Notes: generated by a model from the letters alone, not told the origin. A stretch of DNA of 64,000 nt from an uncultured Candidatus Saccharibacteria bacterium (GCA_964594965.1 CAZQMX010000002.1:44306-108305), one strand, 5' to 3'. Shown: positions 5,794 through 33,294, counted from the stretch's first letter. Numbers and translations: made by a program.

Positions 5794-7127
5794 TACTTCT
5801 TAACTCTCTTTTTAATTTCTTTAACAACTTTTTCCAAAGGAACGGTTTCCTGGCTGCCGGAAGCCATATCCCGGATAATGATAGTTTCATCCAGGGCTTC
5901 TTTCTGCCCCAGAATCAGGGCAAAACGAGCATTCATCTTGTCGGCAATTTTCAACTGACTATTGATTGTATTTTTACTGAACGAACTTGATGTTTCTATG
6001 CCGGCCTGTCTTAGTTCTTCAAATAGTTTTAAGGATTTCTTCTTGCCTAATTCACCTAATTGAATCAGAAAAACCAGGGATGAATTCCTTAAAGGGACTT
6101 TAACATCCTTCTCCATCATCAGATTAACTATCCTGTCCAATCCCATAGCAAAACCAACTCCGGGCGTATCTTTGCCGCCGAGGAGTCTAACTAATCCGTC
6201 ATAGCGGCCGCCGCCGCCCAAAGCAGACTGCCTGCCCGCCGAATTGGCGGGTCGGCCATCCCCTTCTTCCGGCCAGATCTCAAAAACGGTTTTAGTGTAA
6301 TAATCCAGTCCCCGGACCAGATTAGAATTGAGGATATAGGGAACTTCAACTTCATCAAGATATTCAAGAACATTCTTAAAATGGTTATGACATTCTGGAC
6401 AAAGATTATCAATTGTCTGAGGAGCTTCTCCGGCTATCAAAACACATTTTTCATTCTTGCAATCCAACAATCTTAAAGGATTTTGTGAAAGTCGTTTCTG
6501 ACAATTAGAACAAATTTCTTTTTTTCTCCTCCGGTAGAAATTAACCAGTTTCTTTCGGTAGGCCGGTCGGCATTGGCGACAGCCAATGCTATTAATCTGG
6601 GTAATGACATTTTTAAGACCAACTCCTTTAATAACGGAGAAGAATAATTGGATTAATTGGGCATCCAGAACCGGATCTTTTTCACCAAAGATTTCAAAAT
6701 TAGCCTGTTCATGCTGTCGGTAACGGCCTTTTTGAGATCTTTCATAGCGAAAAACCGGTCCGGTGCTATAGAGTTTAATTGGGTGTGGCAAAGAAGAAAG
6801 ACCGTTTTGAAGATAGGCCCTGATAACGGCCGGGGTAAATTCCGGACGAAGGACTAATTTGTCTCCCCCTTTTGTTCTAAGGGTATACATTTCCTTTTGG
6901 ACAATATCAGTTGTCGCGCCAGTTCCCCTAATAAACAGATCAACATCTTCTATTATTGGAGTATCAATTTGTTCAAAGCCATAAGTCTTGGCTGTCTTAG
7001 AGATTACTTGCCTGGCTTTTTCCCAATAGGCCTGTTCTTGAGGCAGAATATCTCTTGTCCCCTTTGGCGCTTGAAAGGTTCTTTTTCTTTTCGGAGTTGT
7101 TGTTTTTTTCTTGCTTTTTGTTGGCAT
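5793..7127 (-). CDS. hisS: histidyl-tRNA synthetase
   Basis: GTRD motif near the N-terminus; class II motif 3 GGGRYDGL. Carries a GC-rich in-frame palindromic insertion (GRPANSAGRQSALGGGG) and a Cys-rich (4x CxxC) insertion. Confidence 0.9.
   Translation of the reverse strand: MPTKSKKKTTTPKRKRTFQAPKGTRDILPQEQAYWEKARQVISKTAKTYGFEQIDTPIIEDVDLFIRGTGATTDIVQKEMYTLRTKGGDKLVLRPEFTPAVIRAYLQNGLSSLPHPIKLYSTGPVFRYERSQKGRYRQHEQANFEIFGEKDPVLDAQLIQLFFSVIKGVGLKNVITQINSIGCRQCRPAYRKKLVNFYRRRKKEICSNCQKRLSQNPLRLLDCKNEKCVLIAGEAPQTIDNLCPECHNHFKNVLEYLDEVEVPYILNSNLVRGLDYYTKTVFEIWPEEGDGRPANSAGRQSALGGGGRYDGLVRLLGGKDTPGVGFAMGLDRIVNLMMEKDVKVPLRNSSLVFLIQLGELGKKKSLKLFEELRQAGIETSSSFSKNTINSQLKIADKMNARFALILGQKEALDETIIIRDMASGSQETVPLEKVVKEIKKRVKK
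6205..6258. repeat. GC-rich palindromic element family 2 (CCTGCCCGCC..GGCGGGTCGG), in frame inside hisS
   Basis: cctgcccgccgaattggcgggtcgg inverted repeat in an AT-rich gene; translates to GRPANSAGRQSALGG. Confidence 0.6.
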
Positions 7128-7129
7128 GA

Positions 7130-7648
7130 TTAAAAAACCTCTGCTTGATTAAAAGGCCAGGCTCTTATCCAGACCTGACCAACAATATTATCTTCTGGTA
7201 AAGCTCCCCATCGTCTTGAATCAGAACTAGCTTTCCGGTTATCGCCCAAAACAAAATATTCTTGATTGCCTAATTCTATCCTGGTCTCTCCTTGGGTGGT
7301 CATTTCTTCAGAAAGATAACCTGTTTCATCAAGTTGAAGATTATTAACAAAAACCCGACCACCTTTAATCTCTATTATCTCGCCGGGAAGACCGACAATT
7401 CTTTTAATATAATACTGGGAAGGGTCAAGGGGATATTTAAAAACAACAACATCCCCGCGCTGGGGATTATCAAAGCGATAGCCAATTTCATTAATAACCA
7501 GATATTGACCATTATCAAAATTGGGCTCCATTGAAGCCCCACGAACGAAAAACGGCTGAATTAAGTAATAGCGGACCGGGATAATGATAGCCAGGGAAAT
7601 AACGACTATTTTAACTATTTCCCAGATAAAAGTCAGTAATTTTTTCAT
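7130..7648 (-). CDS. lepB: signal peptidase I
   Basis: N-terminal TM, catalytic Ser region GASMEPNF, and the GDNRKASSDSRRWG box typical of SPase I. Confidence 0.85.
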   Translation of the reverse strand: MKKLLTFIWEIVKIVVISLAIIIPVRYYLIQPFFVRGASMEPNFDNGQYLVINEIGYRFDNPQRGDVVVFKYPLDPSQYYIKRIVGLPGEIIEIKGGRVFVNNLQLDETGYLSEEMTTQGETRIELGNQEYFVLGDNRKASSDSRRWGALPEDNIVGQVWIRAWPFNQAEVF

Positions 7649-7656
7649 TGCTTTTT

Positions 7657-7722
7657 TGTCATTCTGAGCGAAGCGAAGAATCTGTTTAACAGATCCTTCG
7701 GGCTTTGCCCTCAGGATGACAA
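7657..7722. repeat. intergenic palindromic element (TTGTCATTCTGAGCGAAGCGAAGAATCTG...CCTCAGGATGACAA) between lepB and the LCP gene
   Basis: Terminal inverted repeats gtcattctgag / ctcaggatgac with a nested inner inverted repeat; related copy at 28473..28533. Confidence 0.6.
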
Positions 7723-7784
7723 CTCTGTTGTCAATTCTAAACTATTTCTTGTTGAAAATCAACCACTCTGATATACTTTGAAGA

Positions 7785-8780
7785 ATGACAGGAAAAAAGA
7801 AAAAAAGAATTGTTTCCTGGGTTGTATTCTTTACATTTTTCTTGTTTCTTTTTTTTCTCTATCAGATAATGCCTTCTTCTTCTTTTGAAGTCCAGTCGGG
7901 TCAGGAATTATCAGAAGAGAGAAAAATTGTTTTCAAATCCCTTCCTATAATTTCAAAAGAGGGGGATCTCAAAAAAAACATTTTAATTCTTGGTCGGCCA
8001 GGTCCGGGCTATTCCGGCAGTAACCTAACCGATACCATTATTCTGGCCCGTATTGACCAAAGCGATTCATCCAAAAAAGCAACTTTGATTTCTTTACCAA
8101 GGGATTTACTTGTTAAAGTTCCTGAAAAAGGAAATCTGACTAAAATCAATTCTCTCTACACTCTTTCCGGCATAGAGGGCCTAAAAGAGAAAATTAAAGA
8201 AATTACTGGTCTTTCAGTTAATAATCATCTCATTATTGACCTGGTTGTTTTCAAGGAAATCATTGATTTAATTGATGGTCTTAATGTCTATGTTGCTCAG
8301 GATATCCATGACCCGTATTTTCCCGGGCCAAATCACACTTACCAGACATTTAACTTAGCCGCCGGCTGGCGCTATCTTGATGGAGAGAATGCCTTGAAAT
8401 ATGCCCGGACCCGCTATACTTCGCCTAACGGCGACTTTGACCGAATGGCTCGTCAGCAACAGATTATCCAGCTTCTAAAACAAAAAGTTCTGGCCCTTAA
8501 TCCCTTATGGGACTTTCCAACCTATTTGAAAATATTTAATTCCCTTAATGAACGAATTGAAACTGACCTCTCTATTTTAGAAATGCGTCTTTTTTATCAG
8601 ATTGCCAAAGAGATTGGGGCTGATAGAATAAGGAGTGTTGTTGTCGATAAAAAGGAAACCGGACTTTTGACCGGCGGCGGAGTCATGTTTGGAGAGCAAA
8701 TGGCCTCGGTTGTCTATCCTGTTATTGGACAAGGGAATTACCGGGAAATACAAGGATATATTAAGGAAAGTATTAAATGA
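7785..8780 (+). CDS. LytR-CpsA-Psr (LCP) family protein
   Basis: N-terminal TM; LILGRPGPGYSGSNLTDTIILARID...ISLPRDL is the LCP-domain signature. Confidence 0.8.
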   Translation: MTGKKKKRIVSWVVFFTFFLFLFFLYQIMPSSSFEVQSGQELSEERKIVFKSLPIISKEGDLKKNILILGRPGPGYSGSNLTDTIILARIDQSDSSKKATLISLPRDLLVKVPEKGNLTKINSLYTLSGIEGLKEKIKEITGLSVNNHLIIDLVVFKEIIDLIDGLNVYVAQDIHDPYFPGPNHTYQTFNLAAGWRYLDGENALKYARTRYTSPNGDFDRMARQQQIIQLLKQKVLALNPLWDFPTYLKIFNSLNERIETDLSILEMRLFYQIAKEIGADRIRSVVVDKKETGLLTGGGVMFGEQMASVVYPVIGQGNYREIQGYIKESIK

Positions 8781-9346
8781 TGAAATTAATTGTTGGCTTG
8801 GGCAATCCTGGAGAGAAATATGAAAAGACCCGTCATAATTTGGGTTGGCGGGTAATTGATTTTTTAGTTGAAGAAATGGGAATTAATCAATTAAAGGAAG
8901 ATAAAAAATTTAAATCCCTGATTGGTAAAAAGAATAATATCATTTTGTCCAAACCACTGACCTTTATGAATAACTCTGGTCAAAGCGTTAAGGCCGTTGC
9001 TGACTATTTTAAAATTCTTAATCAGGATATTTTAATTATCCATGATGATATTGATTTGGATTTAGGCGAGACAAGGATACAGGAAGGCAGAGGCGCTGCC
9101 GGACATAAGGGAGTTGAATCAATTATTGAACACTTAGGAACAAAAGATTTTAAGAGAATTAGAATTGGCGTTAAACCGGCAGAAGAGAATATTGATACCC
9201 CGAAAGGGAATAAATTCCCAACGGGGCAGGCAGAAAAGTTTGTTCTAGAAAACTTTACTAACCAGGAAGAAAAGATTATTGGAGAAATAATTAAAAAGGC
9301 CGCCCAAATAATTAGGACGACTTTTAAACTACCTAGTCTTCACTAG
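8777..9346 (+). CDS. pth: peptidyl-tRNA hydrolase
   Basis: MKLIVGLGNPGEKYEKTRHNLGW start is the canonical Pth N-terminus. Confidence 0.9.
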   Translation: MMKLIVGLGNPGEKYEKTRHNLGWRVIDFLVEEMGINQLKEDKKFKSLIGKKNNIILSKPLTFMNNSGQSVKAVADYFKILNQDILIIHDDIDLDLGETRIQEGRGAAGHKGVESIIEHLGTKDFKRIRIGVKPAEENIDTPKGNKFPTGQAEKFVLENFTNQEEKIIGEIIKKAAQIIRTTFKLPSLH

Positions 9347-9496
9347 CCTACCCAGGAGCGTTAGAAACAAGTTCGCAAAAGCGAGTCATCTCTAATCTTT
9401 CAGCCGCTTGAACTAGGAGGGATTGTTCAAGTAATGGCTACTCCGCGGGCAGGCTGGTAGAGACTAGTTTGCCTATAAGAGGTCATACTATAAAAA

Positions 9497-10381
9497 ATGG
9501 AAGGAATTGTCAATAAAAAATATTTTAATGCCTTTAATTGTATTGATGGAATCGGTCCAATTGCTTTTAAGAAATTATTAGTTCATTTTAAATCTTTGAA
9601 AGATGCCTGGTCTGCTGATCTAATTGAATTCAGCCGAGCAGGCCTAAGCAGGTCAGTTATTGAACAAATTAAAAAACAGAGGCCAAAGATTAACCCTGAT
9701 TTGGAAATGGAAAAACTTTCAAGAGAAAATATTGACCTAATTACAGTTTTTGATAAAAATTATCCTCAATTGCTTAAAGAAATCTATGCTCCGCCGGCAA
9801 TGCTATACATTCGCGGCCAATTCAAACCAAAAGATAAATTCAGTTTAGGTATTGTCGGACCAAGAAAACTTTCTCCCTACGGAAAACAAATTACTCCCTT
9901 AATTACAGCTGAATTATCTCAATCAGGATTAACTATTGTCAGTGGTTTAGCCAAAGGAATTGACACCTTGGCTCATCAGGCAACAATAAAATCCAAAGGA
10001 AGAACAATTGCTGTTTTGGGCTCTGGTCTGGATAAAAGGAGCATCTATCCTTATCAGAACAAGCATCTGGCTGAAGAGGTCAGCCAGAACGGCGCTCTTA
10101 TCAGTGAGTACCCGATTGGTACCCGTCCTCTGGCTCAGAACTTTCCCCAGCGCAACAGAATTATTTCCGGCCTGAGCTTAGGAATTCTGGTTATTGAAGC
10201 TGGAGAAAAAAGCGGGTCTTTAATTACTGCCCGAGATGCTTTAGAACAAAATCGAGAGGTCTTTGCCATCCCTGGTTCGATTTTAAGCCAAAACTCGACA
10301 GGAAGTAATAATTTGATTAAAATGGGAGCAAAGCTGGTAAGCCAGGCTAATGATATTTTGGAAGAACTGAATTTGAGATAA
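9497..10381 (+). CDS. dprA: DNA processing protein DprA (Smf)
   Basis: GIVGPRKLSPYG...GLAKGIDTLAHQ...TIAVLGSGLD Rossmann-like DprA core. Confidence 0.85.
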   Translation: MEGIVNKKYFNAFNCIDGIGPIAFKKLLVHFKSLKDAWSADLIEFSRAGLSRSVIEQIKKQRPKINPDLEMEKLSRENIDLITVFDKNYPQLLKEIYAPPAMLYIRGQFKPKDKFSLGIVGPRKLSPYGKQITPLITAELSQSGLTIVSGLAKGIDTLAHQATIKSKGRTIAVLGSGLDKRSIYPYQNKHLAEEVSQNGALISEYPIGTRPLAQNFPQRNRIISGLSLGILVIEAGEKSGSLITARDALEQNREVFAIPGSILSQNSTGSNNLIKMGAKLVSQANDILEELNLR

Positions 10382-10384
10382 TTA

Positions 10385-10516
10385 TCAACTCTCAATAACC
10401 AATAACCAATCAACGATCAAGTATCAATGATCAATTCTTGAATTAATTAATTTAATTGAAAATTAAGAAATTGATAATTGTTTGATAATTGAAAATTGAT
10501 AATTGAAAATTAGCTT
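10385..10516. repeat. AT-rich tract with repeated AATTGAAAATT/GATAATTG motifs (dprA-topA intergenic)
   Basis: ...aattgaaaattaagaaattgataattgtttgataattgaaaattgataattgaaaatt. Confidence 0.5.
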
Positions 10517-12586: not shown

Positions 12587-12616
12587 AAGCCGCCTCCAGC
12601 AGGGACGGCTTTTTTA
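12586..12616 (+). terminator. rho-independent terminator after topA (aaagccg-(15 nt)-cggcttt + T-run)
   Basis: 7-bp stem followed by ttttttag directly after the topA stop. Confidence 0.55.
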
Positions 12617-12631
12617 GTAAAAAAACGACTC

Positions 12632-15081: not shown

Positions 15082-15102
15082 GAAGCATGGAACAATTTAT
15101 AT

Positions 15103-15130
15103 GTTTCAAGTTTCAAGTTTCAAGTTTCAA
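15103..15130. repeat. tandem 7-mer (GTTTCAA)x4 in the parA-parB intergenic region
   Basis: gtttcaagtttcaagtttcaagtttcaag directly between the parA stop and the parB start. Confidence 0.6.
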
Positions 15131-15132
15131 GA

Positions 15133-15915: not shown

Positions 15916-15962
15916 TACTAAAAAATTGACAACAAGGGGTTTTTAAGAGAGAATGAAAATAT

Positions 15963-16046
15963 GGGGATGTGCTGGAACTGGTAGACAGTGCGGTCTCAAA
16001 CACCGCTGGACGCAAGTCCGTGTGGGTTCGACTCCCACCATCCCCA
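15963..16046 (+). tRNA. tRNA-Leu (anticodon CAA), long variable arm, CCA not encoded
   Basis: Acceptor ggggatg/catcccc; anticodon stem gcggt/accgc with loop ctCAAac; long variable arm; T-arm gtggg-ttcgact-cccac. The ORF-track entry 15953..16135 is this RNA, not a CDS. Confidence 0.85.
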
Positions 16047-16123
16047 CTAATAGGGTTCGCCCCGTCATTCGACGGGGCGCCACATCGGATGATGTGGCGA
16101 CTCCCACCCCAGGCACATTAAAA

Positions 16124-19196: not shown

Positions 19197-19198
19197 AA

Positions 19199-20080
19199 TT
19201 AAATATTAAATAATTCCCGGGAGTTTTTGGTTGTTTGTTTAGCAACTTCCTCAAATTTAATTCCTTTAATCTCGGCTATTTTTTCTGCAACATATTTAAC
19301 ATAAGCTGGTTCATTTCTTTTGTTTCGATTTGGTTCCGGAGCTAAATATGGACAATCGGTTTCAATTAATATCTTATCCAAAGGAATCTCCCTTATTACT
19401 TTATCATAATCTCGGGCATAAGTAATCAATCCATTGAAACTAATATGTAATCCCATTTCAATAATTTTCTTTGCCTGGGAAAGACGACCCATAAAACAAT
19501 GGACAACTCCTTTTAATCCGGGTGCGCAGACCATTGGACAAGAAGCACAGCCAAGATTAAACATAGTTAAAATTTCAATTAAATCATCGTAAGCCTTGCG
19601 GCAATGGAAAACAATTGGTTTTCCCATTTGTTGGGCCATTTCCAATTGTCTGACTAAAGCTTCTTTTTGTTTTTCCCTTCGACTCCGCTCAGGATCCCGA
19701 CCTTGCGTCGGGACTTTCTTATCGATATCTCCATAATCCAGACCAATCTCTCCAACTCCAACCACTTTTGGGTCTTCAAGTAATTTAAGATATTTTTTCT
19801 CATCTAATTCCTCGTATTCCCTTTCTTCTATTTCTCCTTTCCAATTTTTTTCCCTTCCGCCTTCAAGAACATGAATTGGATGAAGTCCAACAATGGCATA
19901 AACCCCTTCCTTGTATTTGTTGGCGTATTCAACCGCTCTTTTGCTCGTTGAATACTGAGCGCCAACATTAATCATCCAGACACCATTATCAAGAGCCCGG
20001 CGAACAACTTTATCCCCGTCTTCCTTAAAATCTTTGAAATTAACATGGGCGTGAGTGTCAATTAATATTGGCTTAGGCAT
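19199..20080 (-). CDS. tatD: TatD family metal-dependent DNase, with in-frame repeat insertion
   Basis: IDTHAHVNF start and GEIGLDY box. Internal GC-rich element encodes KKVPTQGRDPERSRRE. Confidence 0.8.
   Translation of the reverse strand: MPKPILIDTHAHVNFKDFKEDGDKVVRRALDNGVWMINVGAQYSTSKRAVEYANKYKEGVYAIVGLHPIHVLEGGREKNWKGEIEEREYEELDEKKYLKLLEDPKVVGVGEIGLDYGDIDKKVPTQGRDPERSRREKQKEALVRQLEMAQQMGKPIVFHCRKAYDDLIEILTMFNLGCASCPMVCAPGLKGVVHCFMGRLSQAKKIIEMGLHISFNGLITYARDYDKVIREIPLDKILIETDCPYLAPEPNRNKRNEPAYVKYVAEKIAEIKGIKFEEVAKQTTKNSRELFNI
19676..19714. repeat. GC-rich element family 1, in frame inside tatD
   Basis: cttcgactccgctcaggatcccgaccttgcgtcgggac; encodes KKVPTQGRDPERSRRE. Confidence 0.65.
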
Positions 20081-20103
20081 AATGGGGAAATTTCCTTTAG
20101 GTT

Positions 20104-26050: not shown

Positions 26051-27908
26051 TTGACCTTGTTGTTTGGGTTAATTCTGCCCCGGTAAAAGTATCCTGACCA
26101 GCTATTTTCGACTGGCCAATCAGTTCCATGGCATCGCCGATATTAGCCGTTCCAGGTGTAATTGAAACCTGAAAAGCAATTTGTTTAACCGGCGATAAAA
26201 CACCGATTCCGGCCGGCAAACTGCCAATATCCCAGGCAATTTGACCGGTTGAGGGACTATAGCTCAAATTAGCATTAGAAGGACTAGTCCGGCCCTCCCA
26301 TTTGACATGAGGTGGCAGATAGGCCTCAACCCGCACACCAGACAAATCATTGTACTTATTAACCACTCTCCATTTAACCGTATAAGTTGTCTTTTGACCA
26401 ACCTTGGGCGGAATCGGTCCACTATTAGAAATTGAATCATCATTGTAAAACACCTGGGTCTGAAAAGTCAAATCACTTGATATTTTAGTGACTGATTTAC
26501 TCTCGCCGGAAATATCAATTCTTTCCAGAGAAAGCGGAACTTTATCTGAATCTATTTCAACAGTATTGGTTACAGCAAAATTCTTATCAGCATAACTATT
26601 AATTGGTAGGGATTTTTTAATATCGATTGAAAATTCAACTTCTCCTTCCTGATGTGGACCAAGATATTCTAAATCTGGCAGGTTGGAAGCGTTCCAGGCA
26701 ATTATCTGATTAACGCCGTCGTACGAGCCATTTCTTGGCTCTAAACTGGCCAAATCCAATGCCTGGCCTTCCAGTTTAGAAGTAATGACAACATCTTCAA
26801 TACCAATATCGGTTGTGTTTTTGTATTTAATCCGGTAATTCAATCTTTGACCGGATTGGGCAATGTATTCAGATGATTGATTAACTTCCTGACTGACTGA
26901 CAGGGGAGAAACAGAAATCTGGGTGGCATCAGCAGTCTGGGCATAAGGAATAAATTGGTCATCTTCAGAAATACCCAGGTTTGCCCGGAACAATTTGTTT
27001 TCTCCTTCTGTTCCGGATAACGTTCCTTTAATAAATATCTTGTTTTGTTCTCCGGCCATTAACTGATTTATTTGCCAAAGGTCATCTTCCCTTAAAGGGC
27101 TTGGCTGGGATGATTCAAAGATAAAGCCAGTTGGATATTCCATTTCAATCTCTAAATCATCGAAAGAAACATCAGATTGATTAGAATAGATCAAGGAAAA
27201 ACTAAACGACTGACCGTCAACTAATCTTTCCGGCAGGTCAAAGTTAAGAATAAAGGGAACAGAAATTATTTCAGTTTCAAATTTAGCCTTGTTGGAAAAA
27301 CGGGAACTAAGATCACCGGGAGTGTAGAAGAGTTCGGCCCAAGCCTCTTTTTTTTCTTCTTTTAACCCAATAATTCTGGCTGGTAATTCAATTTCTTCCT
27401 CCTGGCCAACTGCCAGGCTCTCCAATTCAAGCGTTTTAATCAATCCTTCGTTGTCTGAAGGAATTGAATCTTCTGGAAAGCGAAAGATTAACTGTAGATT
27501 ATTCAAAGGCAGTTTGGTCTCATTTTTGTACCTAACAATATATTTAACTTCATCACCGCTAATAATTCTTTCTGCTCCTTCAATTTCAAATTTAACATCG
27601 TCTGTATCAAAAGAAGTCATTCCCCGCCAAAAGAAAAAGCCGGCTACAATTAAAAAAATAGCCAGCGCCCAAATACCAAAAACTTTTAAAAGTTTCTTTT
27701 GCTTTGGCGATAATTCCTTTTTTTCTGTTTTTTGCCATTTTCCGGTTTCAATCTTTTTTCTTTTCTCTTCTGGCTGAAATTCTTCTGGTCCCTCCAATCT
27801 TTCTTCAAATTCAACTTCACTTCCCGGCTTATATATTTTCTTTTTAAGTTTTTCTAAATCGTTGTCAGGCATTGTTCTTATTTTAAAACATTTACCAAGA
27901 ATGAACAA
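25995..27908 (-). CDS. large membrane-anchored surface protein, hypothetical
   Basis: Lys/Glu-rich cytoplasmic N-terminus, a single TM (FGIWALAIFLIVAGFFFW), then a ~520 aa beta-rich ectodomain with no recognisable catalytic motif. Confidence 0.5.
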   Translation of the reverse strand: MFILGKCFKIRTMPDNDLEKLKKKIYKPGSEVEFEERLEGPEEFQPEEKRKKIETGKWQKTEKKELSPKQKKLLKVFGIWALAIFLIVAGFFFWRGMTSFDTDDVKFEIEGAERIISGDEVKYIVRYKNETKLPLNNLQLIFRFPEDSIPSDNEGLIKTLELESLAVGQEEEIELPARIIGLKEEKKEAWAELFYTPGDLSSRFSNKAKFETEIISVPFILNFDLPERLVDGQSFSFSLIYSNQSDVSFDDLEIEMEYPTGFIFESSQPSPLREDDLWQINQLMAGEQNKIFIKGTLSGTEGENKLFRANLGISEDDQFIPYAQTADATQISVSPLSVSQEVNQSSEYIAQSGQRLNYRIKYKNTTDIGIEDVVITSKLEGQALDLASLEPRNGSYDGVNQIIAWNASNLPDLEYLGPHQEGEVEFSIDIKKSLPINSYADKNFAVTNTVEIDSDKVPLSLERIDISGESKSVTKISSDLTFQTQVFYNDDSISNSGPIPPKVGQKTTYTVKWRVVNKYNDLSGVRVEAYLPPHVKWEGRTSPSNANLSYSPSTGQIAWDIGSLPAGIGVLSPVKQIAFQVSITPGTANIGDAMELIGQSKIAGQDTFTGAELTQTTRSIDTNLPDDPTVGNGQVIE

Positions 27909-28468
27909 CTTTTTATTTCCTCATTAATTAAAGACTGAACAAAATTGAGCGGATTTTTTTGTTGCCCATATCCCAAAAATTCCAATAACCTATTTTCATA
28001 ATTATTAACAACCCCTTTTATATCCTTTTTCTGATTAAGACTCTCAAAACTCCCTAAAAGCAATTGCCAAATATTTTCGTCTTTTTCCGGTCCGGCAATT
28101 AATTTATCAATGATTTCTGCTAAATAGTATCCTCCGGCTAAAGATGATAAATCTTTCCGAAGGGAAGAAAAATTCTCAAGCGTTTCAGCGCCGGTAATAA
28201 TATCAAAGCCTCTGCCCGGCCCGCCTGCAACGCTTGATGCGTAGCGTCTGCGGGCAGGAGCAATCACCAAATGACTCAATAAAAAAAGTTCCAGGTGTCC
28301 TTTTAATTTGGCCTGGTTTTTTCTGACTGACTTGGCTTTGACTAGGATTTTACCGTAATCTTTGGTGTAAATGGTCAAAAGCCGGTCTAGGTCATTAAGA
28401 TTTTGTTTTTTAATAATAATGCCTTCAGTTTTGTAGAGCATATTGTTTGTCACTCTGAATATTAACAT
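27878..28468 (-). CDS. recO: DNA repair protein RecO, with in-frame GC-rich insertion
   Basis: MLYKTEGIIIKKQNLNDLDRLLTIYTKDYGKILVKAKSVRK OB-fold N-terminus. Internal insertion APARRRYASSVAGGPGRG. Confidence 0.8.
   Translation of the reverse strand: MLIFRVTNNMLYKTEGIIIKKQNLNDLDRLLTIYTKDYGKILVKAKSVRKNQAKLKGHLELFLLSHLVIAPARRRYASSVAGGPGRGFDIITGAETLENFSSLRKDLSSLAGGYYLAEIIDKLIAGPEKDENIWQLLLGSFESLNQKKDIKGVVNNYENRLLEFLGYGQQKNPLNFVQSLINEEIKSCSFLVNVLK
28214..28258. repeat. GC-rich palindromic element family 2, in frame inside recO
   Basis: cccgcctgcaacgcttgatgcgtagcgtctgcgggcagg; near-identical to the reverse complement of the argS copy; encodes APARRRYASSVAGGPGRG. Confidence 0.65.
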
Positions 28469-28472
28469 TCAT

Positions 28473-28533
28473 TGTCATTCTGAACGCAGTGAAGAATCTG
28501 TTCGTATAGATCCTTCGACTTCGCTCAGGATAA
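28473..28533. repeat. intergenic element related to 7657..7722 (GTCATTCTGAACGCAGTGAAGAATCTG...CGACTTCGCTCAGGAT) between recO and ileS
   Basis: Shares both the gtcattctga..gaagaatctgtt and the cttcgacttcgctcaggat modules (the latter also present in the in-frame family-1 copies). Confidence 0.6.
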
Positions 28534-28568
28534 CTATTTATAACTAAATCAAAGATTTAGATAAATAG

Positions 28569-31517
28569 TTACTTCTTAATTCCGAGCCAGAGATTATGGC
28601 CGTTTAATTTGATCTCCTTTTCAACCAAAAAGACTTCCCCGATGTTTTTAGAGTCGGGATCCCGACCTTGTGTCGGGACTTTCTTTTTTGGCCCGCCCGC
28701 ATTGCCTTGCGAAGCATGGCGGGCGGGTCCGGCTTCAATTTTTCTGGCTGAAACTTCTTTTTTAATTTCTTCGAGGTTGTTTTTAATTAAATCGCTTAGT
28801 TTTGATTCACCGGCTGAATAGCGGAAATATGCTGGTTGGCCTGGTTTTAATCCGGCGTCTTTTCTCATTCCCTGGATAAAACGGATTAAATCCCGAATCA
28901 TTCCTTCTGATTCTAATTCTGAAGTAATTTTTGTATCTAATTTAATACTTTTGCCAAAATCAACTTCTTTAACATTAACTTCTTCTTTGATTAATTGGGT
29001 TAATTCTTTATCCTGGACAATCTGTTTTTTGGTAATTATTAATTTCTTCAGAGGTTGTCTGACTTTAATTCCTTTTTCTGCTCTTTTAGCCAGAGCCAAA
29101 GCAACAATTTCTCTGACATCATTCATTTTCTTTTCCAGCTTTTCATCAATTAAAGATTTGTCCGGCTTGGGATAACCGCAGAGATGAACGCTTTCTTTGT
29201 CTTTTCCGGTCCGAAGCTGAAGATAAATTTCTTCGGAAATGAAAGGGGTGAAAGGAGCGATTAATTTGGATAAATTAAGTAAGGTTGAATAGAAAATCTG
29301 TGAGGCTTCTTCTTTTTGTTTTCTATTCTCCGGTTTCTGAAACCTCGATCTTGACCGTCTGATATACCAGTTAGACAAATCTTCAACAAATTCCTCAATT
29401 AAACGAGCAGCCGAGACAACATCATATTTCTCTAAATTATCAATGACCAAAGTGTTTAATTGATTAAATTGAGAAACAATCCATTTATCCAGAATGAATC
29501 TTGGCTTTGTTTTCTTTGGTTTAAAGTTTTTGTCTTTGTAAGTATTGAAAAAGACAGCCGAGTTATGAAGCGTTCCAAAAACTCTTCTGTTTTTGTCGGC
29601 AACATCCTTAACATCAAATCTCTTTGGCTCTCCAGCGGAATTGATGGTGTATAAGTACCAACGGAGAGTGTCGGCTCCGAATTGTTCGCACATTTTCCAG
29701 GGATCAACAATATTGCCCTTTGACTTTGACATTTTCTTGCCTTTCTTATCCAAGACATGGCCAAGAGAAATGACATTTTTAAAACAAGCCCCATTCTTAA
29801 TTTCTCCGGCTTCCTCCATTAAAGTCGCGATGGCAAGGAGAGAATAGAACCAGCCTCTGGTCTGATCAACGGCCTCGCAGATATAGTCGGCGGGGTAGTG
29901 GTCTTTTAATTCCTTCTGGCTGTTTTTCTGATGAGGATAGCCCCATTGAGCAAATGGCATTGCTCCTGAATCAAACCAGACATCAATAACTGACTTTTCC
30001 CGAATCATTTGGCCGCCGCACTGGCATTTGAATTTAACCTGGTCGATATGTGGCCGGTGAAGATCTTTAATTTCTTTTCCCAGTTCCTTTATACTGCCAA
30101 TTGCCTTTTCCTTATCGCATTTCTGGCATTTCCAGATTGGCAAAGGGGTCCCCCAGTATCTTTCCCTTGAAAGAGCCCAATCCTTGGCTTCTTTAATAAA
30201 TTCGCCAAACCGGCCATATTTGGTGTGATTCGGCTCCCAATTAATCTTTTCGTTGTTATCTGTCAGCTTTTTTCGAAGAGATGACATTTTAATAAACCAG
30301 GAATCTTCGGCGTAATAGAGAAGAGGGGTGTCGCATCGCCAACAAAAAGGATAATCATGCTCGTATTCTTCTTCCTTGAATAAGAGGTTTTTCTCTTTTA
30401 AGTAATTAATAATTTTCTTTTCGGTTTCTTTATCTTTAACATATTGATTAGCTAAACCATATGGAGCCAAATCATTGGTAAAATATCCTTTTTGATCAAC
30501 AGTATGGATTTCAGGCAAGCCGATTTCTTTACCCAGATTATAGTCATCTTCGCCATACATGACAGCAGTATGAACAATGCCGGTTCCTTCTTCGGTTGTA
30601 ACAAAATCAGCTAAAACAAGGTAATGGGATTTCTTTTTACTTTTTTTAACTGATTCAATTTCAAAGAGAGGCTGGTATTCAAGACCAACCATATCCTTTC
30701 CTTTGAGCTCTTTTTCTACTTTATAGTCGCCTTCAATAATTTCTAATCTCTCCTTGGCTAAGATATATTTCTTGCCCTGGTATCCTATCTTAACGTAATC
30801 AATATTCTTTCCAATGGCTAAAGCGACATTTCCCGGCAGGGTCCAGGGAGTAGTTGTCCAGGCTAAAATATTGTCCCCCTTTTTTACTTTTTCATTTCCT
30901 TTGGTAATTTTAAAATTAAGATAAACTGAATTCTCTTTTACTTTCTCGTATCCCTGAGAAACCTCGTGGGTGGATAGAGCTGTTCCGCAGCGGGTACAAC
31001 GGGGAACAACCTTAAATCCTTTGTAAAGCAGTCCTTTTTCCCAAACTTTTTTTAAAATATGCCAAACGCTTTCAATATATGAATTTTCGTAAGTAATATA
31101 TGGATTATCCATATCTATCCAATAACCAATCCTATCTGTCATTTTTTCCCATTCGTCCTTGTATTTCCAAACACTTTTTTTACATTCCTGATTGAATTTA
31201 TCAATTCCATATTTCTCAATATCGTCTTTTCCTTTGAAATTTAATCTTTTTTCAACTTCAATTTCAACTGGCAGGCCATGCGTGTCCCAACCGGCCTTTC
31301 GATGACAAAAAAATCCGCGCATGGTTTTGTACCGCGGAATGATATCTTTAAAAGCTCTGGCTTCAACATGGTGCATGCCTGGTCGACCATTGGCTGTTGG
31401 CGGACCTTCAAAAAAAACAAAACTTTTTTTGCCTTTGTTTTTTTTCAAACTTTTTTCGAAAATTCCAGACTTTTTCCAGAATTTTAGAATTTTTAATTCA
31501 TTCTTTGAAAAGTTCAT
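28569..31517 (-). CDS. ileS: isoleucyl-tRNA synthetase (type 2-like), with C-terminal repeat insertions
   Basis: KMSKSKGN; WALSRERYWGTPLPIW; CWRCDTP zinc motif; 982 aa. C-terminal region contains two adjacent GC-rich elements (AGPARHASQGNAGGPKKKVPTQGRDPDSK). Confidence 0.9.
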   Translation of the reverse strand: MNFSKNELKILKFWKKSGIFEKSLKKNKGKKSFVFFEGPPTANGRPGMHHVEARAFKDIIPRYKTMRGFFCHRKAGWDTHGLPVEIEVEKRLNFKGKDDIEKYGIDKFNQECKKSVWKYKDEWEKMTDRIGYWIDMDNPYITYENSYIESVWHILKKVWEKGLLYKGFKVVPRCTRCGTALSTHEVSQGYEKVKENSVYLNFKITKGNEKVKKGDNILAWTTTPWTLPGNVALAIGKNIDYVKIGYQGKKYILAKERLEIIEGDYKVEKELKGKDMVGLEYQPLFEIESVKKSKKKSHYLVLADFVTTEEGTGIVHTAVMYGEDDYNLGKEIGLPEIHTVDQKGYFTNDLAPYGLANQYVKDKETEKKIINYLKEKNLLFKEEEYEHDYPFCWRCDTPLLYYAEDSWFIKMSSLRKKLTDNNEKINWEPNHTKYGRFGEFIKEAKDWALSRERYWGTPLPIWKCQKCDKEKAIGSIKELGKEIKDLHRPHIDQVKFKCQCGGQMIREKSVIDVWFDSGAMPFAQWGYPHQKNSQKELKDHYPADYICEAVDQTRGWFYSLLAIATLMEEAGEIKNGACFKNVISLGHVLDKKGKKMSKSKGNIVDPWKMCEQFGADTLRWYLYTINSAGEPKRFDVKDVADKNRRVFGTLHNSAVFFNTYKDKNFKPKKTKPRFILDKWIVSQFNQLNTLVIDNLEKYDVVSAARLIEEFVEDLSNWYIRRSRSRFQKPENRKQKEEASQIFYSTLLNLSKLIAPFTPFISEEIYLQLRTGKDKESVHLCGYPKPDKSLIDEKLEKKMNDVREIVALALAKRAEKGIKVRQPLKKLIITKKQIVQDKELTQLIKEEVNVKEVDFGKSIKLDTKITSELESEGMIRDLIRFIQGMRKDAGLKPGQPAYFRYSAGESKLSDLIKNNLEEIKKEVSARKIEAGPARHASQGNAGGPKKKVPTQGRDPDSKNIGEVFLVEKEIKLNGHNLWLGIKK
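28650..28680. repeat. GC-rich element family 1, in frame inside ileS 3' end (adjacent to a family-2 copy)
   Basis: gagtcgggatcccgaccttgtgtcgggac; encodes KVPTQGRDPDS. Confidence 0.6.
28689..28730. repeat. GC-rich palindromic element family 2, in frame near the 3' end of ileS
   Basis: cccgcccgcattgccttgcgaagcatggcgggcggg; encodes AGPARHASQGNAGGP. Confidence 0.65.
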
Positions 31518-31737
31518 ACCATATTTATCTAAATTTTCAAGCTATCAAGCGAAGAAAATTTAGTGATTAAATTTGAGCACCCCGCCCCCTATACTCTAAC
31601 TTTTGTCAGAATAAACGTAGATAGTAAAATCAATTTTATTCTTTTCTTCAATCTTTGTCAGAACATAGGGGGCGGGGTAAGGTTTTGTGACATAATTTTA
31701 ATTTATCTAAAGATAAATTAAAATTCTGACAAAGCCC

Positions 31738-33294
31738 TTACATCCTCTCTGGAGCGTTAATTCCCATTAAACTTAAACTGTTTTTTAAGACAATCTGAAC
31801 GGCCTTGACTAAAGCCAGGCGGGATTGGCTTTTTTCCTTATCTTTATCAATGACCCGACATTTTTCATAAAACTTATGAAAAGAATTGGCTAATTCAAGG
31901 GAGTAATAGGGGAGTCGCTGAGCTTGATAATCCCCTGCAATATCTTGAACAATTTCAGGGAATTTGATTAGCTGACGAATTAAATCCAATTCTTCTGGTT
32001 TTTTTAAACTAGCTTCTTTATCCGGTTTTAATCCTTCCTTTTCCGCTTTCCTTAAAATACTGGATATTCTGGCATGAGCGTACTGGACATAGAAGACCGG
32101 ATTTTTGTTTGACTGTTCCTTGGCTAAATTAATATCAAAATTCAAATGAGTGTCGTTTGATTTTTGAAGGAAAAAAAATCTGACTGCATCGGGACCAACC
32201 TGGTCTAAAATCTCATCCATTGTCACATAAACCCCGGCTCTTTTAGACATTCTTTTCTTTTCGCCTTTTTCAAGAATTGTGACGAACTGAAGAAGAATAA
32301 TTTCTAATTTGTCCTTATAACCCAAAGCTTCAACCCCGGCCATTAATCCTAAAACATCGCCATGATGGTCTGCTCCCCAAATATTAATAACTTTGTCAAA
32401 TTTCTTATCTTCAAATTTGTATTGATGAAGGGCGATATCCCCCGCCAGGTAGGTCTTTTCGCCGTCGCTTTTGACGACTACCCTATCCCTTTCATCCCCG
32501 AATTTTGAGGATTGAAACCATTGGGCTTTGTCTTTGTCGTCAATTAAACCTTTTTTCTCTAATTTTTTCAAGACCTGATCAACTTTTCCTGAACTATACA
32601 AATCTGATTCAAAAATCCATTCATCATATTTTATTCCAAGTTTGTCTGTTGTTTTTTGGATGTGGTCTTTAATAATATACTTGGCAGCCATTTGTCCGGC
32701 TTTGTATGGGTCTTTCTCTTTTATCTTTTCCGCTAATTGGTCGATATATTCTCCCTTGTATTTAGCTTCTTTATCTTTTAGAACCGAATGGCCTAGGGTT
32801 AGAATCTGCATTCCAGCATCATTGACATAAAAAGCTTTTTCAACTTGATAACCGGCTTTATTTAAAACATTAGCCAAGACATCGCCATAAGGCCCACCCC
32901 GGGCATTACCAACTGTTAAGGGTCCGGTTGGATTGGCAGAAATAAATTCAACCTGAATTTTCTTTTTCTTTCCAATATCTAATTCGCCGTAGTCATTTTC
33001 TTTTTTAAGAATTTCGTTTAATTCATCTAAGAGTGCTTGTCTAGACAAAAAAAAGTTAATAAAAGCAGGCCTGCCCGCATCGCTACGCGAAGCGTTGCGG
33101 GCGGGGCCCGCCATCTCAACTTTGGCAAACAAAGGATTGTCTTTTAGTTTGGAAATAATCTCGTCTGGATTGATTTTCTCCTTTAAGGCGATATTGGTTG
33201 AGAAATCGCCAAATTGAGCATTGGTTGGGTGCTCTAATTCGGCCTCTTTTTTAACAACTTCTTTAATTAATTTCTCAATTTCCTCTCTTAGCAT
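31738..33294 (-). CDS. argS: arginyl-tRNA synthetase, with N-terminal-region GC-rich insertion
   Basis: VEFISANPTGPLTVGNARGG (HIGH-region equivalent) and DALR-type C-terminus. Insertion MAGPARNASRSDAGRPAF. Confidence 0.9.
   Translation of the reverse strand: MLREEIEKLIKEVVKKEAELEHPTNAQFGDFSTNIALKEKINPDEIISKLKDNPLFAKVEMAGPARNASRSDAGRPAFINFFLSRQALLDELNEILKKENDYGELDIGKKKKIQVEFISANPTGPLTVGNARGGPYGDVLANVLNKAGYQVEKAFYVNDAGMQILTLGHSVLKDKEAKYKGEYIDQLAEKIKEKDPYKAGQMAAKYIIKDHIQKTTDKLGIKYDEWIFESDLYSSGKVDQVLKKLEKKGLIDDKDKAQWFQSSKFGDERDRVVVKSDGEKTYLAGDIALHQYKFEDKKFDKVINIWGADHHGDVLGLMAGVEALGYKDKLEIILLQFVTILEKGEKKRMSKRAGVYVTMDEILDQVGPDAVRFFFLQKSNDTHLNFDINLAKEQSNKNPVFYVQYAHARISSILRKAEKEGLKPDKEASLKKPEELDLIRQLIKFPEIVQDIAGDYQAQRLPYYSLELANSFHKFYEKCRVIDKDKEKSQSRLALVKAVQIVLKNSLSLMGINAPERM
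33068..33112. repeat. GC-rich palindromic element family 2, in frame inside argS
   Basis: cctgcccgcatcgctacgcgaagcgttgcgggcgggg; encodes MAGPARNASRSDAGRPAF. Confidence 0.65.

What the first reader, a model, noticed from the sequence alone, without database searches (positions are those of the whole stretch)
6205..33112. GC-rich palindromic elements (family 2, CCCGCCCGC...GCGGGCGGG type) inserted in frame inside essential genes: hisS, recO, ileS, argS
Four 40-55 nt segments are imperfect palindromes built from the same modules: cctgcccgc / gcgggcagg around tacgcgaagcg-like cores. Their GC content is far above the surrounding AT-rich coding sequence.

Each is in frame and adds a Gly/Pro/Ala/Arg-rich peptide to an otherwise Lys/Ile/Asn-rich protein: GRPANSAGRQSALGG, APARRRYASSVAGGPGRG, AGPARHASQGNAGGP, MAGPARNASRSDAGRPAF.

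The recO and argS copies are close reverse complements of each other. This resembles Rickettsia palindromic elements (RPEs), which colonise ORFs in frame and are tolerated in surface loops.

Finding such elements in aaRS and repair genes of a reduced genome is notable.
Basis: seen in the sequence. Interest (0 to 1): 0.75.

Follow-up and report, generated by a model that had tools for sequence, protein, structure and literature searches.

The report
Hairpin repeats written into essential genes
Three essential genes of this tiny-genome (Patescibacteria) bacterium carry recent in-frame copies of one 36-base GC-rich hairpin element. The same element occurs almost unchanged in many bacterial phyla, sits next to a tiny GIY-YIG nuclease gene, and adds 12-amino-acid loops to housekeeping proteins.

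Summary
argS, ileS and recO each carry an in-frame GC-rich palindrome of 36, 36 and 39 nt. hisS carries a 21-nt hairpin with similar ends. All four are absent from a sister genome. Two modelled sites lie in low-confidence loops between beta-strands.

The three long copies belong to one sharply bounded 36-nt element, E: CCCGCCCGCATCGCTACGCGAAGCGTTGCGGGCGGG. A scan of species-representative genomes found it nearly invariant in at least 120 loci, in many Patescibacteria lineages, Verrucomicrobiota, Lentisphaerae, Bdellovibrionales and others.

Covariation supports an asymmetric hairpin with a GCGAAGC mini-hairpin. E is stop-free in 5 of 6 frames. In low-GC genomes 21 of 51 copies lie inside ORFs, such as SecA, UvrB, RadA and TsaD. 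Seventeen of those 21 share one orientation and phase, giving PARNASRSDAGG. That argues the element is translated and filtered by selection.

E-like hairpins flank an 81-aa single-domain GIY-YIG nuclease gene that sits beside tRNA or tmRNA genes, and the association holds in both directions.

The closest known system is Ssn/SRM (NTS) of 2025. E fails the published SRM motif, and it is not a Rickettsia RPE. The hisS insert cannot be assigned to the family. Mobilisation by the nuclease is inferred, not shown.

The parts
33070..33105 (+). Element E copy in argS (gene on the - strand, 31738-33294). It is 36 nt, CCTGCCCGCATCGCTACGCGAAGCGTTGCGGGCGGG, with the GCGAAGC strand on +. It encodes PARNASRSDAGR between AG and P(A/G)FINF.
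   Evidence: nhmmer E=5e-13. The site is empty (GGC|CCG) in the sister genome L003. 118 of 120 ArgRS orthologues lack any insert here. Residues 65-74 have pLDDT<50 in the turn between strands 56-62 and 78-83.
28692..28727 (+). Element E copy in ileS (gene on the - strand, 28569-31517). It is 36 nt, CCCGCCCGCATTGCCTTGCGAAGCATGGCGGGCGGG, and encodes PARHASQGNAGG near the C-terminus.
   Evidence: nhmmer E=1.5e-9. It is absent from L003 and L005 (empty site GGA|CCA). It matches the 'CCTTGCGAAGCATGG' subtype seen in other genomes.
28220..28258 (-). Element E variant in recO (gene on the - strand, 27878-28468). It is 39 nt, with the GCGAAGC-type strand on -, 3 extra bases and several substitutions. 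It encodes PARRRYASSVAGG.
   Evidence: nhmmer E=0.016. It is a 39-nt insertion relative to L003 and L005 (empty site GCT|CCG).
6231..6251 (.). 21-nt GC-rich mini-hairpin in hisS (gene on the - strand, 5793-7127). The coding strand reads CCCGCCAATTCGGCGGGCAGG and adds GRPANSA just before motif 3 (GGGGRYD). Its ends resemble E ends. Family membership is not shown.
   Evidence: It is a 21-nt insertion relative to the 93%-identical orthologue P0121/L127. It is not detected by the E profile. No class of short-centre E derivatives was found. It lies in the loop 289-299 (pLDDT<50) between strands 280-286 and 304-308.
28652..28680 (.). Second, unrelated GC-rich hairpin insertion ('family 1', GGGATCCCGACCTTGTGTCGGGAC) in ileS, 11 nt from the E copy. 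The two together add 26 aa.

Best explanation
The argS, ileS and recO segments are copies of a 36-nt, non-autonomous, hairpin-forming repeat, here called E.

One DNA strand of E folds into a 9-bp outer stem, a 5-nt bulge (ATCGC) and an inner stem capped by the very stable GCGAAGC mini-hairpin. E is the cognate repeat of a family of 78-82-aa single-domain GIY-YIG nucleases. These nuclease genes sit immediately beside tRNA or tmRNA genes, with E-like hairpins inserted in a duplicated tRNA fragment next to them.

By analogy with SsnA/NTS, a GIY-YIG ssDNA nuclease that binds a hairpin repeat and cuts beside it, and with REP/RAYT, I infer three steps. The nuclease recognises the folded strand in single-stranded DNA. 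Its breaks, repaired by host functions, spread solo copies. The pair moves horizontally between phyla.

In Patescibacteria there is almost no intergenic space. Surviving copies are therefore often inside genes. E is exactly 12 codons long and stop-free in 5 of 6 frames, so such insertions are translated as a 12-aa hydrophilic loop. Selection keeps those in tolerant loops and mostly in one frame (PARNASRSDAGG).

Shown: the element boundaries, recent insertion, cross-phylum conservation, covariation, frame bias, loop location and the two-way association with the GIY-YIG gene.

Inferred: that the nuclease binds or cuts E, that it drives the spread, that the substrate is ssDNA, and that the peptides are present in the proteins.

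The hisS 21-nt hairpin is either a decayed relative or an independent hairpin insertion.
For: - Empty sites: the sister genome GCA_964596615.1 (82-91% nt identity) has empty sites for all four. Every insertion of 9 nt or more in the window relative to it is a GC-rich hairpin.
- Independent hit: L005 carries E 3-4 nt away in the same ArgRS turn, in the opposite orientation and another phase.
The unconstrained positions are nearly invariant and the ends are sharp at 36 nt. The flanks are neither conserved nor complementary.
- Structure: the asymmetric fold has 21 double-change cells, reached by 0 of 500 shuffles. The symmetric fold has 1.
- Coding copies: 21 of 51 copies in low-GC genomes lie inside robust ORFs. 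Of these, 17 of 21 share one orientation and phase (P=3e-9) and 18 of 21 are in phase 0 (P=1e-6). Hosts include RadA, Tgt, trigger factor, SecA, UvrB, Fpg, TsaD and HtpX.
- Nuclease near E: 19 of 23 ORF fragments matching the GIY-YIG profile in 928 kb lie within 500 nt of E. The protein matches PF01541 at E=7e-17.
- E near nuclease: of 80 metagenome loci chosen by the protein alone, 33 have an E-like hairpin within about 150 nt, 36 times the density elsewhere in those loci. In 22, a tRNA or tmRNA gene starts 0-77 nt after the stop codon.
- Link to Ssn: GIY-YIG genes on Rhizobium and Azospirillum plasmids are flanked by canonical SRM hairpins, and the Azospirillum protein aligns to this family (hhalign 98%). 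Ssn biochemistry is in PMC11893778.
- Not an artefact: independent assemblies (JGI, ENA, Logan) give identical sequence.
Against: - No GIY-YIG gene of this family occurs in the 80 kb of the source genome that could be read, or in the sister fragments.
- Only 13% of E loci and 41% of nuclease loci show the pairing at the thresholds used.
- GIY-YIG nucleases are not known to join DNA strands, so an insertion mechanism is missing.
- E does not match the published SRM motif, and the C-terminal third of the protein differs from SRM-flanked Ssn-like proteins.
- No target-site duplication or clear target motif was found. With n=3 empty sites, all that can be said is that they are local CCGG or GGCC-rich spots.
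- Translation of the insert is inferred from frame statistics only.
- hisS is not detectably a member.
Confidence: 0.65

Rival explanations
1. E is a host-useful signal rather than a selfish repeat. It could be a recognition site for an Ssn-like ssDNA nuclease that restricts or shapes natural transformation and recombination, as proposed for NTS in Neisseria, or another ssDNA or RNA structural signal. Copies would then be kept by selection for that role.
For: - The sequence is extremely conserved across phyla and shows compensatory changes.
- The Ssn/NTS precedent exists (PMC11893778).
- The window encodes DprA, and the left extension L219 carries a gene with a PF03772 Competence domain. DNA uptake is therefore plausible.
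Against: - Copies are absent from a very close sister genome, and they sit inside conserved proteins where they cost 12 extra residues.
- Only 3 copies occur in 80 kb, with no clustering around particular genes.
- The strong frame bias looks like damage limitation, not design.
Confidence: 0.15
2. E is mobilised by something other than the GIY-YIG nuclease, for example a RAYT or IS200/IS605-type HUH transposase or a phage function. The GIY-YIG gene would be a homing-endonuclease-like passenger at tRNA genes, and E would simply tend to insert next to it or serve as its homing site.
For: - REP/RAYT and IS200/IS605 are proven hairpin-dependent ssDNA systems with strand-transfer chemistry, which GIY-YIG enzymes lack (established knowledge, also discussed in PMC11893778).
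- Most E copies are far from any GIY-YIG gene.
Against: - The only recurrent neighbour seen is the GIY-YIG gene. The association holds both ways and across hairpin subtypes that keep the same termini.
- E lacks the 5' GTAG or CGTC tag of REPs.
- Only 3 viral contigs carry E.
- I did not scan systematically for RAYT genes.
Confidence: 0.12
3. The inserts are removed or skipped at the RNA or translation level, as a mini-intron or by ribosomal bypassing. The proteins would then be unaffected.
For: - The hairpins in the mRNA are very stable, at -28 to -37 kcal/mol.
- E also occurs inside tRNA-derived sequence.
Against: - Removal would erase any reading-frame constraint. Yet 17 of 21 coding copies share one frame, and none uses the stop-containing frame.
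- All window inserts are multiples of 3 nt.
- The tRNA pieces that carry E are truncated duplicates beside intact tRNA genes. In-silico excision of E restored no tRNA in any of 127 cases.
- There was no Rfam match.
Confidence: 0.04
4. The hairpins arise locally by template switching or quasi-palindrome mutation, or are assembly artefacts, and are not copies of a mobile sequence.
For: - The hisS insert is short and unique. It sits in a loop where relatives carry other, non-palindromic 7-10-aa inserts.
Against: - For argS, ileS and recO the same 36-nt sequence is found in more than 100 unrelated genomes.
- Identical inserts occur in independent assemblies from different samples.
Confidence: 0.04

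Closest known systems
Ssn nucleases with their NTS/SRM hairpin repeats (Chenal et al. 2025, PMC11893778)
   Same: - A small single-domain GIY-YIG protein is encoded between or next to 20-50-nt GC-rich hairpin repeats, and those repeats are also scattered through the genome as solo copies.
- The hairpin centre is a GCGAAGC or GCGAAAGC-type mini-hairpin, and the repeat has an orientation.
- The systems are spread over several phyla and enriched in symbionts.
- The protein cores align: 36-40% identity by tblastn to both SRM-flanked proteins, and hhalign 98% to the Azospirillum one.
   Different: - E does not match the published SRM motif HGTCWY..., has no CGTC tag, and the window has no SRM hit.
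- The protein is shorter (81 aa against 94-97) and has a different C-terminus, LKTGFGRAYLKRRL.
- The gene is tied to tRNA or tmRNA genes and to tRNA-fragment duplications, which that paper does not mention.
- 41% of copies in low-GC genomes are inside ORFs, against 2% for NTS in N. meningitidis.
- No biochemistry exists for this family.
Rickettsia palindromic elements (RPE; from my own knowledge: Ogata et al. 2000)
   Same: Palindromic repeats insert in frame into conserved genes of a reduced genome. They add peptide segments that are tolerated at the protein surface.
   Different: - RPEs are about 100-150 bp and encode 30-50 aa. E is 36 nt and encodes 12 aa.
- None of the four host proteins hit an RPE model in NCBIfam.
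- E occurs in many phyla, not only Rickettsia.
- E has an identified candidate partner enzyme.
REP/BIME elements with RAYT transposases, and IS200/IS605
   Same: Short GC-rich imperfect palindromes, 20-40 nt long, are recognised as ssDNA hairpins. They occur as many solo copies plus a few copies flanking the enzyme gene.
   Different: - E has no terminal GTAG or CGTC tag.
- The neighbouring gene is a GIY-YIG nuclease, not an HUH tyrosine transposase.
- REPs are extragenic and usually species-specific. E is often intragenic and nearly identical across phyla.
GC clusters of yeast and other fungal mitochondrial genomes (from my own knowledge)
   Same: These are 30-50-nt GC-rich palindromes that spread in an AT-rich compact genome and can sit in frame inside protein genes.
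   Different: They are organellar and unrelated in sequence. No associated GIY-YIG or tRNA architecture is shown. This is an analogy only.

Membership tests
Ssn/SRM system (PMC11893778) | Partner protein is a small single-domain GIY-YIG nuclease | tested here: met
   The ORFs next to E are 78-82 aa. PF01541 matches at E=7e-17 over residues 1-70, with no other domain.
Ssn/SRM system (PMC11893778) | [quoted passage not shown] | tested here: inconclusive
   No CDD is available here. The core aligns to SRM-flanked GIY-YIG proteins of Rhizobium and Azospirillum plasmids at 36-40% identity by tblastn; hhalign against the Azospirillum protein gives probability 98%. All GIY-YIG domains are homologous, however, and the C-terminal third differs. 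The nearest solved structures are UPF0213 proteins, at E=8e-6.
Ssn/SRM system (PMC11893778) | Gene flanked by copies of a hairpin repeat that is also dispersed in the genome | tested here: met
   33 of 80 loci chosen by protein alone have an E-like hairpin within about 150 nt, a 36-fold density excess. 19 of 23 GIY ORF fragments in E-selected loci lie within 500 nt of E.
Ssn/SRM system (PMC11893778) | Repeat matches the SRM search motif HGTCWYN(0-2)YYVSBRHN(0-5)WNVSBRGN(0-2)RNCYNB | tested here: not met
   The regex finds 4-5 SRMs around each of the Rhizobium and Azospirillum genes. It finds none in E or anywhere in the window.
Ssn/SRM system (PMC11893778) | Enzyme cuts only ssDNA, next to one strand of the hairpin | not testable with these tools
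   This needs biochemistry. The indirect hint is covariation favouring an asymmetric fold with a GCGAAGC mini-hairpin.
Rickettsia palindromic elements (RPE) | Element of about 100-150 bp encoding a 30-50-aa segment recognisable as an RPE domain | tested here: not met
   The inserts are 21-39 nt. None of the four host proteins matched an RPE model in NCBIfam at E<=0.001.
Rickettsia palindromic elements (RPE) | In-frame insertion into conserved ORFs at tolerated surface positions | tested here: met
   All four inserts are in frame. The ArgRS and HisRS inserts lie in low-pLDDT loops between strands. Related copies occur in SecA, UvrB, RadA, TsaD and others.
REP / RAYT | Short imperfect palindrome with a conserved GTAG or CGTC tetranucleotide at one end | tested here: not met
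   The consensus of 127 copies starts CCCGCC and ends GGCGGG. The flanking positions are variable.
REP / RAYT | Extragenic location | tested here: not met
   All window copies are intragenic. 21 of 51 copies in low-GC genomes lie inside ORFs.
REP / RAYT | Association with a RAYT (HUH Y1 transposase) gene | not tested
   No systematic search for RAYT genes was made. The recurrent neighbour found was the GIY-YIG gene.
CRISPR repeat | Regularly spaced array of identical 24-40-nt repeats with unique spacers | tested here: not met
   The copies are singletons inside genes. The only tandem case (L072) has a 136-nt period made of repeated tRNA 5' fragment plus E.

The most novel reading that the evidence does not exclude
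E and its 81-aa GIY-YIG partner form a previously undescribed, horizontally spreading mobile system. A minimal ssDNA nuclease is nested at tRNA or tmRNA genes. Its 36-nt hairpin has evolved to be 'ORF-compatible': exactly 12 codons, stop-free in 5 of 6 frames, encoding a flexible Pro/Gly-capped loop. It can therefore colonise the essential genes of ultra-compact Patescibacteria genomes and rewrite protein loops across phyla.
Probability: 0.35. Interest if true: 0.8.

Novelty: new variant of a known kind. Interest (0 to 1): 0.66.

Why it matters
- It would show that the hairpin-repeat and small GIY-YIG nuclease pairing, described only in 2025, extends to Patescibacteria and Verrucomicrobiota with a different repeat and a tRNA-linked gene arrangement.
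- It would show that such repeats can live inside essential protein genes, not only between genes.
- It gives a concrete, testable enzyme and substrate pair: an 81-aa protein and a 36-nt ssDNA hairpin. That pair is of possible use as an ssDNA tool.
- It gives a simple marker for recent insertion events in uncultured lineages.
- It offers a natural experiment on which protein loops tolerate a fixed 12-aa insertion.
- It is a caution for annotation and phylogenomics of CPR proteins, because these inserts create lineage-specific 'low-complexity' segments.

Tried and rejected
- Rfam at gathering thresholds on the whole window found only a tRNA and the tmRNA, and nothing at the elements.
- ARAGORN on 127 E contexts, with and without the 36 nt excised, restored no tRNA. 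The idea of E as an intron in functional tRNAs was dropped.
- The SRM regex from the Ssn paper gave no hit in E or the window.
- A viral-contig scan found only 3 contigs with E, so there is no support for a mainly phage-borne element.
- An HMM search for the GIY-YIG family in the window, the sister-genome pieces and the two extensions of the source genome found nothing.
- I tested whether the hisS 21-mer belongs to a class of centre-deleted E copies. In low-GC loci the centre is 18 nt in 57 of 77 matches of the anchor pattern; the 17 of 22 nt are the same 36-nt element picked up from an extra upstream GCCCGC, and the rest are single cases. CCCGCC(N3-5)GGCGGG mini-hairpins are rare and heterogeneous, so this stayed unassigned.
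- HisRS loop inserts in two relatives (P0122, P0156) are not palindromic.
- Six literature searches, including the exact DNA and peptide strings and CPR together with palindromic elements or RPE, found no description of this element.
- Family 1 (GGGATCCCGACCTTGCGTCGGGAC) does not occur in any of the 213 loci held at the time.
- A search for a target-site duplication or flank complementarity found none.


Full report
**What is in the window**

The window is 38% GC. Best hits of its ArgRS and HisRS show it comes from a Parcubacteria/Patescibacteria genome of the Portnoybacteria type.

NCBIfam confirms the four host genes: hisS (5793-7127), recO (27878-28468), ileS (28569-31517) and argS (31738-33294). 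All lie on the minus strand.

They encode exactly the peptides quoted. Words of the CCTGCCCGC type occur 15 times against 4.9 expected, and no shuffle out of 100 reaches that count. As RNA, the argS and ileS segments fold far better than shuffled controls (z -3.6 to -5.2). recO and hisS fold only modestly better.

**The inserts are recent**

A homology search for ArgRS returned 120 orthologues. 118 of them read ...AGPGFINF... without interruption. Only the window protein and one other (P0003) carry 12 extra residues there.

I fetched syntenic DNA from two relatives.
- L003 and L127 come from GCA_964596615.1, with 87-93% protein identity and 82-91% nucleotide identity.
- L005 comes from GCA_002685955.1, with 74% ArgRS identity.

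The sister genome has clean empty sites in all four genes:
- argS: GGC|CCG, 36 nt inserted in the window
- ileS: GGA|CCA, 36 nt inserted
- recO: GCT|CCG, 39 nt inserted
- hisS: CGA|CAA, 21 nt inserted

L005 also lacks the ileS and recO inserts. It does carry a copy of the same element in the same ArgRS turn. That copy is 3-4 nt away, in the opposite orientation and in another reading phase, so it is an independent hit at a hot spot.

Over about 35 kb of aligned sequence, every insertion of 9 nt or more in the window relative to the sister is a GC-rich hairpin. The only such insertion in the sister is a 12-nt AT-rich stretch.

**Location in the proteins**

AlphaFold models built with orthologue alignments place the inserts in loops.
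- ArgRS: insert residues 65-74 have pLDDT below 50. They lie in the turn between strands 56-62 and 78-83 of an otherwise confident model (pLDDT 87.9, pTM 0.90).
- HisRS: the insert lies in residues 289-299 (pLDDT below 50), between strands 280-286 and 304-308, just before motif 3.

I did not model IleRS or RecO.

**The element is one sharply defined 36-mer found across phyla**

I scanned one genome per species with a pattern that fixes only the skeleton shared by the argS and ileS copies: GCCCGCANNGCNNNGCGAAGCNNNGCGGGC.

The loci come from many Patescibacteria lineages: Moranii-, Davies-, Giovannoni-, Doudna-, Zambryski-, Gribaldo-, Jorgensen-, Levyi-, Komeili-, Magasanikii- and Saccharibacteria. 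They also come from Verrucomicrobiota (Akkermansia, Prosthecobacter, Chthoniobacterales), Lentisphaerae, Bdellovibrionales, Margulisiibacteriota, Terriglobales and a gammaproteobacterium. All listed records are MAGs.

The positions left free in the pattern are nearly invariant. The consensus is CCCGCCCGCATCGCTACGCGAAGCGTTGCGGGCGGG. Conservation stops abruptly at positions 1 and 36. The flanks are neither conserved nor complementary, and there is no target-site duplication. Position -1 is C or G in 43 of 52 low-GC cases.

A profile of these copies finds three copies in the window: argS E=5e-13, ileS 1.5e-9 and recO 0.016. It finds one in L005 and none in the sister fragments.

It does not find the hisS insert. 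That insert shares only the end motifs (CCCGCC...GCGGGCAGG). I found no class of centre-deleted derivatives that would link it to the family.

Two independent assemblies extend the source genome by 7 kb and 8.9 kb with zero mismatches to the window. They contain no further copies. That gives 3 copies in about 80 kb.

**Structure**

Among 52 distinct variants, the changes at positions 16/26 (A-T to G-C) and 17/25 (C-G to T-A) are compensatory.

The fold they support has four parts:
- an outer stem, positions 1-9 with 28-36
- a 5-nt bulge, ATCGC
- an inner stem, positions 15-19 with 23-27
- a GAA triloop

This fold shows 21 double-change cells, and no shuffle out of 500 reaches that number. The obvious symmetric palindrome fold shows only one.

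The centre is therefore the GCGAAGC mini-hairpin, which from my own knowledge is unusually stable in DNA. The two strands are not equivalent. These counts cannot say whether DNA or RNA is the folded molecule.

**The element is read through, and selection filters the frame**

E is 12 codons long and has a stop codon in only one of its six frames, which follows directly from the sequence.

In loci below 50% GC, 21 of 51 copies lie inside ORFs that stay open for at least 150 nt on both sides. Of these 21:
- 17 share a single orientation and phase, giving PAR(N/H)AS(R/Q/H)(S/G)DAGG (P=3e-9 against an even spread over the five open frames)
- 18 start at codon position 1 (P=1e-6)

The residues before the insert are diverse, so a codon-specific target does not explain the phase bias. 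An insertion process cannot sense the reading frame. The bias must therefore come from selection on the translated product, possibly combined with a mechanistic orientation bias.

The argS and ileS copies use this majority frame. The recO copy is in the other orientation.

Host proteins in other genomes include RadA, Tgt, trigger factor, SecA, UvrB, Fpg, TsaD and HtpX. The phenomenon is therefore general in Patescibacteria and not special to aminoacyl-tRNA synthetases.

**Association with a small GIY-YIG nuclease at tRNA genes**

Some flanks of E looked like pieces of tRNA. Next to them lies an ORF of about 81 aa. A typical sequence is MFYTYVL...LYVG.T.DL..R...H..G.......R.P..L.YYEAC.....A..REK.LKTGFGRAYLKRRL. 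It is a single GIY-YIG domain (PF01541, E=7e-17).

With an HMM of this family, 19 of 23 matching ORF fragments in 928 kb of E-selected loci lie within 500 nt of an E copy.

In all 11 loci examined in detail the gene abuts an intact tRNA gene (tRNA-Val, tRNA-Gln) or, in L116, the tmRNA gene. E is then inserted in a duplicated, truncated piece of the tRNA on the other side of the gene. The insertion point is in the D-arm in some loci and in the T-stem in others. Excising E in silico restored no tRNA in any of the 127 contexts, so the interrupted pieces are remnants and not functional genes.

- 33 have an E-like hairpin within about 150 nt. I defined E-like as termini CCYGCCYGC...GCRGGCRGG with at most 2 substitutions and a variable centre.
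- That density is 36 times the density in the rest of the same loci.
- In 22 loci a tRNA or tmRNA gene starts 0-77 nt after the stop codon.

The family has at least 1,082 members at E<=0.001 in the protein database. Most named ones come from Patescibacteria.

No member is present in the 80 kb of the source genome that I could read.

**Comparison with what is known**

The closest described system is Ssn/NTS-SRM (PMC11893778). In that system, small single-domain GIY-YIG proteins (cd10448) are flanked by GC-rich hairpin repeats that are dispersed in the genome. The proteins bind one strand of the repeat as ssDNA and cut beside it. In Neisseria they modulate transformation.

That paper does not mention Patescibacteria, Verrucomicrobia or tRNA genes. 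It reports that NTS repeats are rarely inside genes (2%).

Using the 81-aa protein as a query, I found distant relatives on Rhizobium and Azospirillum plasmids. Those genes are flanked on both sides by canonical SRM hairpins such as CGTCATCCCCGCGAAGGCGGGGATCCAG, so they are Ssn-type loci. Both proteins match the new family over the core at 36-40% identity by tblastn, and the Azospirillum one aligns at hhalign probability 98%, but they have a different C-terminus.

E itself does not match the published SRM motif, and the window has no SRM at all.

I therefore file the system as working like Ssn/SRM and as a new variant. I do not file it as a demonstrated member.
- It is not an RPE. It is 36 nt rather than over 100 nt, the host proteins hit no RPE model, and it is not restricted to Rickettsia.
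- It is not a classical REP. It has no GTAG or CGTC tag, it is intragenic, and it has a different partner gene.
- It is not a CRISPR repeat.

Six literature searches, including the exact DNA and peptide strings, found no description of it.

**Mechanism: what is shown and what is inferred**

Shown:
- the element's identity and boundaries
- recent insertion, including an independent insertion in a relative
- location of the ArgRS and HisRS inserts in loops
- cross-phylum conservation with compensatory changes
- the frame bias
- the two-way association with the GIY-YIG gene beside tRNA genes

Inferred by analogy with SsnA and REP/RAYT:
- The nuclease recognises the folded strand of E in ssDNA.
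- Its cuts, followed by host repair, copy E to new GC-rich spots. The three empty sites all contain CCGG.
- The pair spreads horizontally.

GIY-YIG enzymes are not known to catalyse strand transfer. The insertion step is therefore the weakest link.

An NTS-like host function for E, or mobilisation by another enzyme, remains possible. RNA-level removal and local de novo origin are unlikely for the three E copies. A local origin remains open for the hisS 21-mer.

**Verdict**

The RPE-like reading is right about behaviour and wrong about family.

The finding leads to a widespread hairpin element with a candidate partner nuclease that I could not find described. I rate it a new variant of a known kind, with interest 0.66.

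Noticed in passing
window 1924-1947, 19691-19714, 28656-28679: A second GC-rich hairpin family ('family 1', GGGATCCCGACCTTGCGTCGGGAC) has 3 copies against 0 expected, all inside minus-strand genes. The copy at 1908-1950 and the ileS copy are absent from the sister genome. No copy occurs in any of the 213 other loci held at the time.
   Followed up: partly
window 9198-9230: A 33-nt hairpin (CCCCGAAAGGGAATAAATTCCCAACGGGGCAGG) is inserted in frame in the peptidyl-tRNA hydrolase gene (8777-9346). It adds about 11 aa (TPKGNKFPTGQ) and is absent from the sister genome. It belongs to a different sequence family.
   Followed up: partly
window 42735-42754: A 20-nt intergenic GC-rich hairpin (CCCCGCCTAGCGGGATAAAC) is absent from the sister genome.
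   Followed up: no
just right of the window (L216 13820-15333, equivalent to window coordinates 64720-66233): The order is dnaN and dnaA on the minus strand, then rpmH, rnpA and yidC on the plus strand. The intergenic region holds TGTGGAT-type DnaA boxes, so the replication origin lies about 1-2 kb beyond the window end. This fits the falling cumulative GC skew and the minus-strand gene bias across the window. It is useful for testing the orientation of E relative to replication.
   Followed up: partly
L072 4505-4947: In a Chthoniobacterales MAG there are four tandem 136-nt units. Each consists of a tRNA-Val 5' fragment (GCGCGATTAGCTCAGTGGTAGA) followed by E. They sit next to a decayed GIY-YIG ORF and an intact tRNA-Val. 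This suggests repeated duplication events at the nuclease locus.
   Followed up: partly
L060 (Moraniibacteriota UvrB): In UvrB the E-encoded peptide (PARIATRSVAGG) is followed directly by SARNASHNTG, which resembles a truncated second copy in the opposite orientation.
   Followed up: no
window 16042-16116: Two adjacent GC-rich hairpins (CGCCCCGTCATTCGACGGGGCG and CGCCACATCGGATGATGTGGCG) lie directly downstream of tRNA-Leu (15963-16047). The first contains a CGTCATTC string, the opening of the NTS motif, but the published SRM search motif does not match it.
   Followed up: no
HisRS orthologues; L214, L215: The same HisRS loop before motif 3 carries different 7-10-aa inserts in several related lineages (GRQTRLP, AKIASSA, RPAEGPLRQR, QPAEGKARQK). 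At the DNA level two of them are GC-richer but not palindromic. The loop is either an indel hot spot or holds decayed older insertions.
   Followed up: partly
L003 14741-15170 against window 28468-28569: The sister genome has a small two-gene cassette, a HicA-toxin-domain gene preceded by a DUF7387 gene, between ileS and recO. The window lacks it.
   Followed up: no
L219 6772-10239 (left of the window): The ribonucleotide reductase large-subunit gene of the source genome carries an intein (PF14890), another selfish insertion in an essential gene.
   Followed up: no
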